From Minisyncoccota bacterium (GTDB lineage: Bacteria > Patescibacteriota > Minisyncoccia > Minisyncoccales > Minisyncoccaceae), in NCBI GenBank assembly GCA_041663645.1, contig JBAYMH010000002.1:16515-80514 (forward strand): DNA of 64,000 bases, written 5' to 3'. Under the pieces are notes generated by a model. That model was not told where the DNA came from. It saw only the letters and a program-made list of their open reading frames with translations, and did not search any database. Both the position numbers and the translations under genes were made by a program. Shown here piece by piece: positions 8,391 to 55,589 of the stretch. Each line of letters begins with the position of its first letter. Position 1 is the stretch's first letter.

Positions 8391-8415
8391 GAGGTCCGAC
8401 CTGAGGTCGGACCTC
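8391..8415. repeat. Palindrome family C, copy 1 (GAGGTCCGACCTGAGGTCGGACCTC)
   Basis: Perfect 12-bp arms around a central G. The same 25-mer recurs at 30794, 42740, 50346, 51400 and 55521. Confidence 0.9.
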
Positions 8416-8455
8416 GTACTGATTCGTTTTGATTTTTTGATAAAAAAAGAAGCCT

Positions 8456-9190
8456 TTAAGTTTGCTTAATGGCTTTTGGAATTTCAATTCTCCTACCCTG
8501 AGAATTGCTTGTTGATTGGTATCGAATAGAGGCCAATGCCTTATCCTTTACCGTCCCGATGAGCACGAAGTTTTCGCCGTCTAAAAGCAAGTATGCTTTT
8601 TTAACTCCGTCTGGCGAAACCTTATTTGGCTTTCGACAATTAACCAAATGAGCAAGAACAACCTCATAAACTTGCTCCGGATTGTTCTCCAGTTCTCTCC
8701 TCAGGTCATATTTTTCATATGCCTGCGAGGGAAAAGGGTCACGAACACTTTTAGTCTCCTTGGTAATCAATTTCCAGGCAAGACTAAGGATGTCTTGGAC
8801 ATCCAAACCCTTTTGTTTTACATAAAACAAAACTACTCGAATAATGGCCAGCACGATAACCGTGTTTTTTTCGGCATCGATTAAAAACATCGGCAATCCA
8901 GCCATAAATATTTTCCACCCGGTAATAAAATAGCTAAACATTGACCGAGTGGCTTCAAGATAGCCGCTAATCAAGGAAAGAACCATGACAGCTATGGCAA
9001 TCTTTATTAATACCTTTCTCATACTTTCTTCGGTTTGGTAAGCAGTCAATACCGCTATTCCATAACCAAACCCTATCAGTAGCCATAAATTAATAATAGC
9101 CCTGTCGGAATATTTTCCTCCGAAAATCAAGAGAAAAATACTCAAACTTACTAATAAAATAGCTACTGCTACGCTGATTCTTTTCCACAT
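8456..9190 (-). CDS. Membrane protein (4 TM N-terminal half, soluble C-terminal half), unknown function
   Basis: 244-aa ORF with hydrophobic helices in residues 1-125. Confidence 0.55.
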   Translation of the reverse strand: MWKRISVAVAILLVSLSIFLLIFGGKYSDRAIINLWLLIGFGYGIAVLTAYQTEESMRKVLIKIAIAVMVLSLISGYLEATRSMFSYFITGWKIFMAGLPMFLIDAEKNTVIVLAIIRVVLFYVKQKGLDVQDILSLAWKLITKETKSVRDPFPSQAYEKYDLRRELENNPEQVYEVVLAHLVNCRKPNKVSPDGVKKAYLLLDGENFVLIGTVKDKALASIRYQSTSNSQGRRIEIPKAIKQT

Positions 9191-9310
9191 TTTGTACCTC
9201 TCAAAAATGCTAACTAAAATATAAATCGTTAAGTGCTTTCAGTCAACTATTTTTACCACCACTGAGTGGTTAGTGCAAAAAAAGAAGGCTTTTTGTTTAG
9301 CCTTTTTATA

Positions 9311-9871
9311 TCATCTTTTAGCTCCAGAGGAAACTATAAAATATAAAGAAAATAAAATTATTATTCCCATTATCGCCATTCCGATTATCCCCCCAAAGAG
9401 GGTAGTGAAATGCCCAGCCGCCATTTCGCTGAGAAGATAATCGGTACTATAGATGTCACCACTCATTCCTGTCCGCTTCTCGGCCAGTGACACCATAAGA
9501 AACCCGAAGAGCGAGAAGATGATCAAAATAAGGGTAATAACGGCAATTGCCTTTATGTTTTTCACCAATATTACCAACCCTCCTCCTATTAATACTCCCA
9601 ACACAAAAGGGAGTATCCAAAAGCCAAGAATTGTGGCGATAATCAGAATGAACATCAAGGCGATTATTTTCCACACCCCCTTTATTTCCCCGATAGCAAT
9701 TAATATCCAGCAGATCGCAAAAATAATAGTTGCGATATGGGCGGCTGTTTCTCCTCCTTTTCCTCCCACAAAAATGGCATGGGCAATACTTCCCACGAGA
9801 CCAAGAAAGGCTAAGGAATAATAATGATTCCTAATCCAATTCTTAGCACCATTTACTATTCTTTCGAACAT
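9311..9871 (-). CDS. Polytopic membrane protein, unknown function
   Basis: The track ORF 9311..9892 starts at TTG; the first ATG is at 9871 (MFERIVNG...). It has five to six Gly/Ile-rich TM helices. Confidence 0.55.
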   Translation of the reverse strand: MFERIVNGAKNWIRNHYYSLAFLGLVGSIAHAIFVGGKGGETAAHIATIIFAICWILIAIGEIKGVWKIIALMFILIIATILGFWILPFVLGVLIGGGLVILVKNIKAIAVITLILIIFSLFGFLMVSLAEKRTGMSGDIYSTDYLLSEMAAGHFTTLFGGIIGMAIMGIIILFSLYFIVSSGAKR

Positions 9872-9968
9872 TTTTAACTCTCCAACTCTCAAATACTACA
9901 ATAAACTATATTAATATATTTGTCAATGTCTGGACACGAGTGCAAACACTTGGTAAAATAAGATTATT

Positions 9969-55000: not shown

Positions 55001-55454
55001 AGGTACTATCGGATGGAAAAAGCTTCAGGTAAATGTTTCTAAGACTGCGGGAGCAGGAAAAATTGCTGTTACTAATGCTGAAATATGGGTTGATGGAAAT
55101 ATGAAAGTGGATGGAGTTGCAACCATTAACACCTTAGCTGATACTGATTCTTCGGGAAGTATAGTCTTTGTCGCTAACGACGAACAACAAATTTCTGGAC
55201 AAAGAACTTATGAGATTAGAGCAACTATGACTGCTACTAGCGGAATTACTAATGGAGATTATGTAAATTCTAATATTCCAGCAGGTACAACCAGTTATGC
55301 AGCTCCAAATACATATAGCGTAGTCGCTGCAACACCTGCTACTTTTGTCTGGTCAGATGTCTCTGCTCAGGGCCACAGCGAAAGCACAAATGATTGGAAT
55401 TCTGATTATTTAGTAAGATATTTAGCAACTTCTACTCAGAATTTGACTAGATAA
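52050..55454 (+). CDS. Giant secreted surface protein with a PG_binding_1 domain, paralog 2
   Basis: 1134 aa. It is collinear with 45998..50005, sharing DLAHFT(F/L)TNGS, [18 protein letters not shown](V/I)GWKK, [8 protein letters not shown](K/R)TYE(L/I)RAT and the C-terminal FVW(T/S)DVSAQ(S/G)HS...STQNL. It has a poly-Asn linker and ordinary AT-rich codon use. Confidence 0.85.
   Translation: [1134 protein letters not shown]
52561..52665 (+). repeat. (AAC/AAT)n microsatellite encoding a poly-Asn linker
   Basis: It encodes [37 protein letters not shown], and the other frames give the spurious track ORFs 52413..52655 and 52528..52755. Confidence 0.9.
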
Positions 55455-55477
55455 ATTTCTACTCAGATCGAAATAAG

Positions 55478-55505
55478 AACCCGACTTTTGAAAAGTCGGG
55501 TTTTA
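55478..55505 (+). terminator. Terminator after paralog 2
   Basis: AACCCGACTTTT-G-AAAAGTCGGGTT followed by a T-run. Confidence 0.7.
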
Positions 55506-55520
55506 TTATTAACAAGTAAC

Positions 55521-55589
55521 GAGGTCCGACCTGAGGTCGGACCTCAGGTCGGACCTCGCAGCACGCTTTGTCATTTTATGTTCTAATAT
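55521..55589 (+). repeat. Palindrome family C, copy 6 (1.5 units) with tail
   Basis: GAGGTCCGACCTGAGGTCGGACCTCAGGTCGGACCTC followed by GCAGCACGCTTTGTCATTTTATGTTCTAATAT. Confidence 0.9.

What the first reader, a model, noticed from the sequence alone, without database searches (positions are those of the whole stretch)
8391..55589. REP-like family: a 25-nt perfect palindrome at six intergenic loci, five with a conserved one-sided tail
GAGGTCCGACCT-S-AGGTCGGACCTC (12-bp perfect arms) occurs at 8391, 30794, 42740, 50346, 51400 and 55521. The copy at 55521 is 1.5 units long. The central base is G in four copies and C at 51400. Both G and C appear in the 1.5-unit copy, as expected if the palindrome flips.

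Five copies continue with RCAGCAYGMTTYSYCATTT(T)ATGTTCTAATAT, always on the + strand. Each lies just downstream of a + strand gene that already has its own terminator. The arms themselves are built from the nested near-palindrome GGTCSGACC.

Read on the minus strand, the tail is TATTAGAACATAAAATG, which is -10-like followed by ATG. The track's repeat-spanning ORFs (SDLRSDL...) start there, so an outward antisense promoter or a tiny ORF cannot be excluded. G+C-rich, exact repeats like these are conspicuous in a genome of roughly one-third G+C.
Basis: seen in the sequence. Interest (0 to 1): 0.65.

Follow-up and report, generated by a model that had tools for sequence, protein, structure and literature searches.

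The report
Species-specific palindromic intergenic repeat family
A small family of about 19 near-identical 60-190 nt repeats sits in the gaps between genes of an uncultured Patescibacteria (CPR) bacterium; it behaves like the REP or miniature mobile repeats of other bacteria, fits no defined family, and has no demonstrated function.

Summary
The 25-mer GAGGTCCGACCT-S-AGGTCGGACCTC occurs at all six stated positions, against 0 expected by chance. Five copies carry the one-sided tail on the + strand.

The window is the dnaA/oriC region of an uncultured Paceibacterota bacterium from landfill and groundwater metagenomes.

Nine more copies on three other contigs define the unit:
- 2-3 tandem 12-nt units forming a perfect palindrome, with 0 substitutions in 15 loci;
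- a 15-16 nt variable linker (19% differences);
- a conserved terminal block, CATTTTATGTTCTAATAT (1.4% differences), with a sharp 3' boundary.

There are no terminal inverted repeats and no target duplication, and the 5' extent varies.

Read depth gives about 17-19 copies per genome. The motif has no exact copy in 185,579 species genomes, including a relative with 93% GroEL identity, and none in viral contigs.

All copies are intergenic. Eleven of 13 sites lie 18-76 nt after a co-oriented terminator.

There is no Rfam match, no covariation and no consistent promoter. The minus-strand ATG is not conserved.

Best reading: a lineage-specific, non-autonomous REP/MITE-like repeat recognised by a sequence-specific protein. 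It works like a REP but fails the GTAG, CGTC, MITE and attC membership tests. It is a new variant of a known kind, of moderate interest.

The parts
8391..8415 (.). Palindrome-only copy (2 units, no tail). It lies between two minus-strand genes, after a minus-strand terminator-like hairpin and before a TTGACT-17-TATAAT promoter-like site. Its orientation is probably minus.
   Evidence: the same palindrome is present at this site in Logan contig L089
30774..30850 (+). Unit with a partial left module (30774-30793, GACGGAATGTTCCGGACGAC), palindrome 30794-30818 and 32-nt tail 30819-30850. It lies 57 nt after the tRNA-Ser terminator.
   Evidence: identical in L002
42738..42796 (+). Minimal unit: AC + palindrome 42740-42764 + tail 42765-42796. 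The 59-mer is 100% identical to 30792-30850.
   Evidence: the exact 59-mer contig has depth 103, twice the single-copy depth
50243..50402 (+). Long form. It starts with the half-site-like AAGGTCCAACG. The left module 50247-50345 forms its own CCCGCC/GGCGGG hairpin and ends GGGAATGTCGCAACACGAC. Palindrome 50346-50370, tail 50371-50402.
   Evidence: (D4)
51288..51455 (+). Second long form, 93% identical to the first over 143 nt. It starts GAGGTCCGATTTC, 14 nt after the stop codon at 51274. Palindrome 51400-51424 has centre C. The tail 51425-51455 is 31 nt.
55519..55589 (+). Three-unit copy: palindrome run 55521-55557 (37 nt) and tail 55558-55589. It lies 18 nt after the terminator at 55478-55507.
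   Evidence: identical in JGI contig L101
50414..50448 (+). Degenerate half-site fragments just 3' of the tail (GTCCGAGGCTCGA ... GAGATCCGACTTCGAAG).
55590..55602 (+). Half-site-like GTCCGAGGTCCGA directly 3' of the tail. With the element's start it forms a 10-nt direct repeat (CGAGGTCCGA). In a related strain (run X4) this sequence is joined directly to a terminator, with no element between.

Best explanation
These are copies of a lineage-specific, non-autonomous dispersed repeat of the REP/MITE kind.

The functional unit is about 60 nt. It consists of a perfect palindrome built from two or three tandem 12-nt units (AGGTCSGACCTS), a spacer of about 15 nt whose sequence is free, and a conserved 17-nt terminal block (CATTTTATGTTCTAATAT) that forms the sharp 3' end.

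I infer that a sequence-specific protein encoded elsewhere in the genome recognises the palindrome and the terminal block at a fixed distance and copies or moves the unit. A strand-specific enzyme acting on hairpin or single-stranded DNA is the most likely type, for example a RAYT or IS200/IS605-like HUH enzyme, or a site-specific recombinase.

Copies survive only in the short spacers between a terminator and the next promoter, which I infer are little transcribed. They always point the same way as the neighbouring genes. Unit number changes by 12-nt slippage. The centre base toggles G/C when the palindrome flips.

Shown: the anatomy, copy number, distribution, position rule, invariance pattern, and the lack of RNA or coding signals. 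Inferred: mobility, and the existence and type of the cognate protein.
For: 1. The same 59-66 nt unit occurs in at least 10 unrelated intergenic contexts. Homology stops sharply at ...TAATAT.
2. Conservation is bipartite. There are 0 differences in the palindrome arms across 15 loci, 39/208 in the linker and 3/208 in the terminal 16 nt. Fisher p is about 1e-12 for tail versus arms. Self-correction of a hairpin would keep each copy symmetric but would not keep all copies identical. This points to sequence-specific recognition of two sites at a fixed spacing.
3. Two copies 12 kb apart are 100% identical over 59 nt, including the variable linker. The matching contig has twice the single-copy depth. 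This indicates recent copying.
4. The family is small: depth 860-950 against 44-54 single-copy gives 17-19 copies.
5. It is restricted in range. There is no exact 25-mer in 185,579 species genomes, including a relative with 93% GroEL identity. There is none in viral contigs, and a covariance model finds none in 72 loci of relatives.
6. A strain contig 90-95% identical (run X4) joins a terminator directly to position 55593 with no element. This looks like an empty site, flanked in the filled site by the 10-nt direct repeat CGAGGTCCGA.
7. Head-to-tail arrays and 2- or 3-unit variants exist.
8. All copies are intergenic. Eleven of 13 sites lie 18-76 nt after a co-oriented terminator-like hairpin, against 3% of random 110-nt windows.
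9. The tail is co-oriented with the adjacent genes at all 8 independent tailed loci.
10. Relatives carry their own, different perfect-palindrome families. This is the pattern seen for species-specific REPs.
Against: - No transposase, RAYT, integrase or relaxase was found in about 117 kb examined. Many proteins there have no Pfam hit.
- There is no target-site duplication and no terminal inverted repeats, so no known transposition signature is present.
- The empty-site evidence rests on one short contig from a diverged strain, with diverged flanks.
- At 42740 the alternative strain shows replacement of the whole intergenic region, not a clean excision.
- Some copies clearly spread by local tandem duplication together with neighbouring small genes (L004 and L007). 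That needs no transposase.
- Orientation is confounded. Gene direction, replication direction and GC skew all coincide.
Confidence: 0.5

Rival explanations
1. The palindromes are binding sites for a host DNA-binding protein, such as a nucleoid, centromere-like or roadblock protein. Each 11-bp AGGTC-S-GACCT unit would bind a dimer, and two or three units at 12-bp spacing would bind cooperatively. The repeat would then serve chromosome organisation or transcriptional insulation, not its own propagation.
For: - The palindrome sequence is absolutely invariant, with no compensatory changes.
- It is built from tandem 12-bp units, each itself a palindrome, in 2- and 3-unit versions.
- Six of about 19 copies lie within -11 to +36 kb of dnaA.
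- The position just after terminators would suit an insulator or roadblock.
Against: - A plain binding site needs neither a co-conserved, one-sided 17-nt block at a fixed 15-nt distance nor a sharp element boundary.
- Other copies sit next to valS, murC-like, purC and ATP-grasp genes on other contigs, so the sites are not origin-specific.
- The motif is absent from a relative with 93% GroEL identity. That is unexpected for a conserved host system.
- The downstream genes share no function.
- There is no resemblance to the parS consensus (my own knowledge of that consensus).
Confidence: 0.17
2. The element works as RNA. One option is a 3'-UTR hairpin that stabilises or back-stops the upstream transcript. 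Another is a small or antisense RNA started from the -10-like minus-strand tail.
For: - The hairpin is very stable: -13 to -24 kcal/mol as DNA, z -4.5 to -8.8.
- The long form folds somewhat better than shuffles, z -2.7 and -3.0.
- The uni- and convergent-gene placement and the co-orientation with genes match what is reported for REPs thought to act as RNA (PMC3733652).
Against: - Eleven of 13 sites lie after a canonical terminator and before the next promoter, so little transcription should reach them.
- No U-tract follows the hairpin.
- None of the 11 pairs shows covariation, and the tail is predicted to be unstructured.
- There is no Rfam hit above noise.
- No promoter-like site was found on the minus strand within any tail.
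- No RNA-seq run holds this organism, so transcription could not be tested.
Confidence: 0.12
3. The family spread only by passive processes: segmental or tandem duplication and gene conversion of an accidental palindrome. No dedicated protein is involved and there is no function.
For: - Tandem duplications include neighbouring small genes in L004 and L007.
- The two long forms, 1054 bp apart, flank a two-gene block.
- The pattern of linker variants is mosaic, which suggests conversion.
Against: - At least 8-10 copies share nothing beyond the 59-66 nt unit.
- The 3' boundary is sharp and common to all copies.
- Purifying invariance of two separate blocks next to a 19%-divergent linker is hard to obtain without selection.
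Confidence: 0.08
4. The minus strand encodes a tiny protein that starts at the tail ATG (M..R..RSDLRSDL..).
For: - An ATG follows an A-rich stretch in most copies.
- The 12-nt unit is a multiple of three, so extra units stay in frame.
Against: - The ATG is ACG in two copies and ATT in one.
- There is no Shine-Dalgarno sequence (by eye).
- Substitutions between the ATG and the palindrome are mostly non-synonymous.
- The sequence after the palindrome is unrelated between loci, and ORF lengths differ.
Confidence: 0.02

Closest known systems
REP / BIME elements (repetitive extragenic palindromes; GTAG- and CGTC-tagged superfamilies, Di Nocera et al. 2013, PMC3733652), with REPIN-RAYT systems
   Same: - Short GC-rich palindromes, species-specific and strictly extragenic.
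- Found between unidirectional and convergent genes, close to the 3' end of the upstream gene.
- Occur singly, in arrays, and in mosaics with other repeat modules. Here the long form joins the palindrome to a TGTC-REP-like hairpin module.
- Relatives have different families.
   Different: - No 5' GTAG tag. CGTC precedes the stem in only 4 of 13 tailed copies.
- The stem is 12 bp and perfect with a 1-nt centre, against 6-9 bp (rarely 12-13) stems with 2-5 nt loops and frequent compensatory variation.
- No head-to-head or tail-to-tail dimers (REPINs).
- It carries a one-sided 32-nt tail with a conserved terminal block.
- Only about 19 copies.
- No RAYT seen in the DNA available.
IS200/IS605-derived palindrome-associated elements (PATEs) and other HUH-enzyme substrates (rolling-circle IS91/Helitron-type 3' ends, oriT hairpin plus nic site)
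   Same: - A subterminal hairpin at a fixed distance from a conserved, sharply defined end.
- No terminal inverted repeats and no target duplication.
- Strict strand or orientation bias.
- Variable extent at the other end.
   Different: - Only one hairpin-bearing end. PATEs have both a left and a right end.
- The hairpin-to-end distance is 32 nt, longer than the roughly 8-20 nt typical of these systems (my own knowledge).
- No conserved flanking target tetranucleotide.
- No TnpA, TnpB, Rep or relaxase gene found.
MITE-type bacterial repeats (Correia/NEMIS, ERIC, RUP, BOX, Rickettsia RPE)
   Same: Short, non-coding, dispersed, modular repeats of 60-190 nt with short and long forms, some species-specific.
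   Different: - No terminal inverted repeats and no target-site duplication.
- No insertions within genes.
- The core is a perfect tandem-unit palindrome, not a long imperfect one.

Membership tests
REP, GTAG superfamily / REPIN-RAYT | Unpaired GTAG (GYAG/GTRG) tag at the 5' end of the stem | tested here: not met
   The oriented copies read ...(C/T/A)(G/A)AC-stem on the 5' side. GTAG occurs only in 2 of 13 copies (L005), and there it lies 3' of the stem. Definition taken from PMC3733652.
REP, GTAG superfamily / REPIN-RAYT | Inverted REP pairs (REPIN) and a single-copy RAYT gene flanked by REPs | tested here: inconclusive
   No inverted pairs of the tailed unit were seen. Arrays are head-to-tail. 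No Y1/RAYT Pfam hit in about 117 kb. The rest of the genome is not available.
REP, CGTC superfamily | CGTC/TGTC/CCTC tag; 8-9 bp stem starting with AT; 4-5 nt loop; short CCA-like tail | tested here: not met
   CGTC precedes the stem on the minus strand only in L005-4740 and the three L007 copies. The stem is 12 bp, starts GA, and has a 1-nt centre (definition). A second family in the same window does meet these features.
MITE (DDE-transposase derived) | Terminal inverted repeats and target-site duplication | tested here: not met
   The ends are GAGGTCC... and ...TTCTAATAT and are not inverted copies of each other. The flanks show no duplication.
IS200/IS605-type PATE | Subterminal hairpins at both ends, no duplication, conserved target tetra- or pentanucleotide at the left end, TnpA(Y1) in the genome | tested here: inconclusive
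   No duplication: met. A hairpin at one end only, and no conserved flank beyond 'AC'. No TnpA in the DNA examined.
Intrinsic terminator | GC-rich hairpin followed directly by a U-tract | tested here: not met
   The hairpin is followed by RCAGCAYG. Canonical terminators lie 18-76 nt upstream instead. Only the 55521 copy is flagged, on the minus strand, because of its T-rich flank.
Integron attC | Imperfect R''-L''/L'-R' hairpin with extrahelical bases, GTTRRRY at the 3' end, cassette array, intI nearby | tested here: not met
   The palindrome is perfect. The tail has GTTCTAA, not GTTRRRY. Spacing is 1-12 kb and spans housekeeping genes such as clpB and a sigma factor. No integrase hit.
Known structured RNA (Rfam 15) | Score at or above a family's gathering threshold | tested here: not met
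   Only tRNA-Ser reaches threshold in the window. The permissive scan of 50150-51520 gives only sub-threshold noise.
parS / centromere-like site | 16-bp parS consensus, origin-proximal only, ParB present | tested here: not met
   The sequence is unrelated to TGTTNCACGTGAAACA (my own knowledge of the consensus). Copies also occur on three other contigs next to valS, murC-like and purC genes. No parAB genes lie next to dnaA here.

The most novel reading that the evidence does not exclude
The invariant palindrome and the conserved terminal block, held at a fixed distance, are the cis-site of an undescribed strand-specific DNA-copying or recombination system in Patescibacteria. This would be a new enzyme-repeat partnership analogous to RAYT-REPIN but with a different recognition logic. 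Alternatively they are origin-enriched chromosome-organising sites. Similar private perfect palindromes with a toggling centre base in related genomes would then be sister systems.
Probability: 0.12. Interest if true: 0.65.

Novelty: new variant of a known kind. Interest (0 to 1): 0.36.

Why it matters
Patescibacteria (CPR) have small, streamlined genomes. My searches of the held literature found no description of this motif, nor of REP-like repeats in this group.

Such a genome nevertheless carries at least two palindromic repeat families, this one and a classical TGTC-tagged one. That means the repeat-and-enzyme ecology known from Proteobacteria may extend to ultra-small episymbionts.

The bipartite conservation gives a concrete handle for finding the cognate protein: an exact 25-mer plus a 17-mer at a fixed distance.

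Practically, the repeats break short-read assembly graphs. Logan contigs end at them. They could also serve as strain markers for this lineage.

Tried and rejected
- Exact-motif scans: GTDB species genomes and viral contigs gave nothing. Shorter viral scans gave only chance hits with no palindrome next to the tail.
- JGI metagenomes gave four stretches from one sample.
- Rfam at gathering and permissive thresholds found nothing.
- RNA-seq runs: none are available.
- A covariance model of the unit, run against 72 loci of relatives, found no homologues. The one weak hit (L046) is a different 41-nt perfect palindrome.
- Extended-stem idea (left flank AACACGAC pairing with the start of the tail): it appears only in the minus-strand fold of the long form. 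It is absent in copies lacking that flank, so I rejected it as a family feature.
- Promoter in the tail: a TTGYCA -35-like hexamer 16 nt from the end occurs in most copies but not all. It would need a -10 in the flank, which is inconsistent. Only one copy is flagged.
- dif/Xer site: the tail shares TTATGTT with the XerD arm (8 of 11), but no XerC arm is present.
- Diversity-generating retroelement hairpin, attC, oriT, DNA-uptake sequence and TIGR array were all considered. Each was rejected on spacing, copy number, or the lack of the associated gene.
- GC skew cannot separate replication orientation from transcription orientation, because skew follows the coding strand here.
- Empty-site searches at 42740 and 30794 were uninformative. 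One showed replacement of the whole intergenic region. The other was swamped by tRNA matches from other organisms.
- One read-laying run was lost to a filter.
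Full report
**Observation.** The 25-mer GAGGTCCGACCT-S-AGGTCGGACCTC is present exactly at 8391, 30794, 42740, 50346, 51400 and 55521. An overlapping one-mismatch hit at 55533 shows that the last copy has three 12-nt units (37 nt). 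No match occurred in 100 dinucleotide-preserving shuffles. All 13 AGGTCSGACCT half-sites of the window lie in these six loci. Five copies continue on the + strand with a 31-32 nt tail ending ATGTTCTAATAT; the copy at 8391 has none. Two copies share a long form of about 156 nt (50247-50402 and 51301-51455; 93% identical over 143 nt). The window has 29-37% G+C. The repeats are not assembly artefacts: independent ENA, JGI and Logan assemblies carry the same sequence at 30794, carry the palindrome at the 8391 site, and are identical at 55521.

**Source.** The window is part of a 183-kb metagenome contig (ENA ERZ27247350). It holds rnpA-yidC-jag and dnaA-dnaN, that is, the replication origin region. 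GroEL is 93% identical to a Candidatus Paceibacterota MAG and 79% to Ca. Microsyncoccus archaeolyticus. The organism is therefore an uncultured Patescibacteria (CPR) bacterium. It occurs in a landfill metagenome (98% of sampled words) and a groundwater metagenome (79%).

**Anatomy.** One JGI metagenome supplied nine more copies on three other contigs (L004-L007). Their junction sequences occur in the same two runs as the window. One (the L005 junction) has the window organism's depth: 46 against 46-50 in the landfill run, and 6 against about 5 in the groundwater run. So they most likely belong to the same genome. Oriented by the tail, all copies read as follows:
- (A)C;
- a perfect palindrome of two or three 12-nt units;
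- a 15-16 nt linker;
- the terminal block CATTTTATGTTCTAATAT.

Homology between unrelated loci runs from about -9 to +56 relative to the palindrome start and ends sharply at ...TAATAT. Conservation is bipartite. There are no substitutions in the arms in 15 loci, 39/208 differences (19%) in the first 16 tail positions, and 3/208 (1.4%) in the last 16.

The 5' side is variable:
- nothing (42740, 55521, L007);
- AACACGAC (L004, L005);
- a GGGAATGTCGCAAMACGAC module (L006; a diverged partial version at 30794);
- a full module of about 100 nt with its own hairpin (50346 and 51400).

There are no terminal inverted repeats and no target-site duplication. Every centre base seen is G or C. Relative to the tail, the single-centre copies are 10 G and 3 C, as expected if the palindrome occasionally inverts. 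A different palindrome family in a relative (L014) toggles T/A in the same way.

**Copy number and range.** In the landfill run the single-copy depth is 44-54. The exact 59-mer shared by 30794 and 42740 has depth 103, and the whole unit sums to 860-950, which gives about 17-19 copies. Fifteen palindromes (13 with a tail) are accounted for. Six of them lie in this window, which is more than a 64-kb share of a genome of roughly 1 Mb would predict. The genome size is my assumption for this clade. The other copies sit next to valS, murC-like, purC and ATP-grasp genes, so the family is not origin-specific. The exact 25-mer is absent from 185,579 species-representative genomes, including the relative with 93% GroEL identity. 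It is absent from IMG/VR. A covariance model of the unit finds nothing in 72 loci of related Patescibacteria.

**Position rule.** All copies are intergenic. Eleven of 13 sites have a co-oriented terminator-like hairpin plus T-run ending 18-76 nt upstream, against 3% of random 110-nt windows. The next gene's promoter-like site lies beyond the tail where one is visible (for example 42858-42886). The tail points the same way as the adjacent genes at all eight independent tailed loci. One locus (L006) lies between convergent genes, so the element is not simply a 5' leader. Gene direction, replication direction and GC skew coincide here, so they cannot be separated.

**What it is not.**
- Known RNA: no Rfam family reaches threshold.
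- Structured RNA: none of the 11 hairpin pairs varies, the tail is unstructured, and the long form folds only modestly better than shuffles (z about -3).
- Terminator: RCAGCAYG follows the stem, not a U-tract.
- Promoter: none is found on the minus strand within any tail.
- Coding: the minus-strand ATG is ACG or ATT in three copies and the downstream frames are unrelated.
- Transcription could not be tested because no RNA run is available.

**Mechanism (inferred).** Two separately invariant blocks held at a fixed distance by a freely varying linker suggest two contacts of one sequence-specific protein. So do a sharp common 3' end, a variable 5' extent, strict orientation, and the absence of inverted ends and target duplication. 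This pattern is closest to hairpin-plus-end substrates of HUH-type single-strand DNA enzymes (RAYT/IS200-IS605, rolling-circle ends) or of a site-specific recombinase.

Evidence for actual movement is indirect:
- identical 59-mers lie 12 kb apart;
- the same unit occurs in many unrelated contexts;
- close relatives lack it;
- one contig from a 90-95% identical strain joins a terminator directly to 55593 with no element. In the filled site that position is bracketed by a 10-nt direct repeat, CGAGGTCCGA.

Local tandem duplication with neighbouring small genes also contributed. No candidate enzyme was found in about 117 kb.

**Comparison.** The element behaves like REP/BIME repeats in its extragenic position, species specificity, placement between unidirectional or convergent genes, and mosaic association with other modules (PMC3733652). 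It fails their defining features: it has no GTAG tag, carries CGTC in only 4 of 13 copies, has a 12-bp perfect stem, and forms no inverted dimers. It also fails the MITE, attC, terminator and parS criteria. The same window does contain a classical TGTC-tagged REP-like family (TGTC-ATTCCCGC-GAAG-GCGGGAAT-CTA). The long form's left module resembles that family in inverted orientation, giving a BIME-like mosaic.

**Verdict.** The 'REP-like' reading is right in spirit, but the antisense-promoter and tiny-ORF side ideas are not supported. This is a new variant of a known kind of element in an unusual host group. It is of moderate interest. The decisive step is a closed genome and a search for the cognate protein.

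Noticed in passing
window 41027-41050 (+), 41537-41560 (+), 45562-45585 (+), 45688-45711 (+), 41384-41407 (-): A second, classical REP-like family: TGTC tag, 8-bp stem starting AT (ATTCCCGC), 4-nt loop (GAAG and variants), partner arm, CTA tail. One copy has a compensatory stem (ATTCCCTT/AAGGGAAT). It fits the CGTC-1 description of Di Nocera 2013, the same type as Neisseria dRS3.
   Followed up: partly
window 40961-41037 and 41448-41524; also 40931-41076, 41430-41586, 45273-45304: Pyrimidine-rich blocks that repeat the TGTCATTCC half-motif flank a 94-aa GIY-YIG gene (41080-41364). Two 77-nt stretches are 100% identical, 487 bp apart.
   Followed up: no
window 30687-30706 vs 30754-30773: A 20-nt inverted copy of the tRNA-Ser(GGA) 3' end lies just after the tRNA's terminator and directly left of the repeat. 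Related genomes (L014 about 14430-14760, L016 about 14260-14560) have other GC-rich repeats at the same place, bounded by GATTCGAA.../...CGAATC.
   Followed up: partly
L014 9553-9581, 14217-14245, 14277-14305: A relative (78% GroEL identity) has its own 29-nt perfect palindrome, AATGTTTGGCAGCC-W-GGCTGCCAAACATT, at three sites in 15.7 kb. Its centre toggles T/A. One site lies upstream of the groES promoter and CIRCE operator, and two lie before tRNA-Ser.
   Followed up: partly
L046 14567-14607; L051 15282-15350 and 16166-16234; L044 3945, 4135, 6216: Other Patescibacteria loci carry private palindromic repeats. L046 has a single 41-nt perfect palindrome sharing CGAGGTCGG. L051 has paired TGTAGAGAC..GTCTCTACA units. 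L044 has an AT-rich MITE-like repeat of about 100 nt.
   Followed up: no
window 11524-12288 and 12312-14093 (with 9969-17362): A type IV secretion-like cluster with a VirB4-like ATPase split into two ORFs (254 aa and 593 aa), plus PrgI-like and TraC-like hits. The tail-less palindrome at 8391 lies about 1.5 kb upstream of it.
   Followed up: partly
window 45998-50005 and 52050-55454: Two very large paralogous proteins (1335 aa and 1134 aa; DNA stretches 73-76% identical) with no informative domains apart from a PG_binding_1 hit. Each is followed by a copy of the repeat.
   Followed up: no
L004 348-518 and 695-847: Two paralogous small hydrophobic peptides (56 and 50 aa, starting M-D/E-S-Y). 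Each is followed by a terminator and a copy of the palindrome. This is a tandem duplication of gene plus repeat.
   Followed up: no
window 42620-42872: In a co-occurring strain (runs X2 and X4) this 253-nt intergenic stretch, which includes the repeat, is replaced by an unrelated 211-nt sequence.
   Followed up: partly
window 50451-50532: A promoter-like site with an extended -10 (50451-50478) is followed within 25 nt by a terminator-like hairpin (50503-50532), just before the 94-aa gene at 50549. It may be an attenuator or a very short transcript.
   Followed up: no
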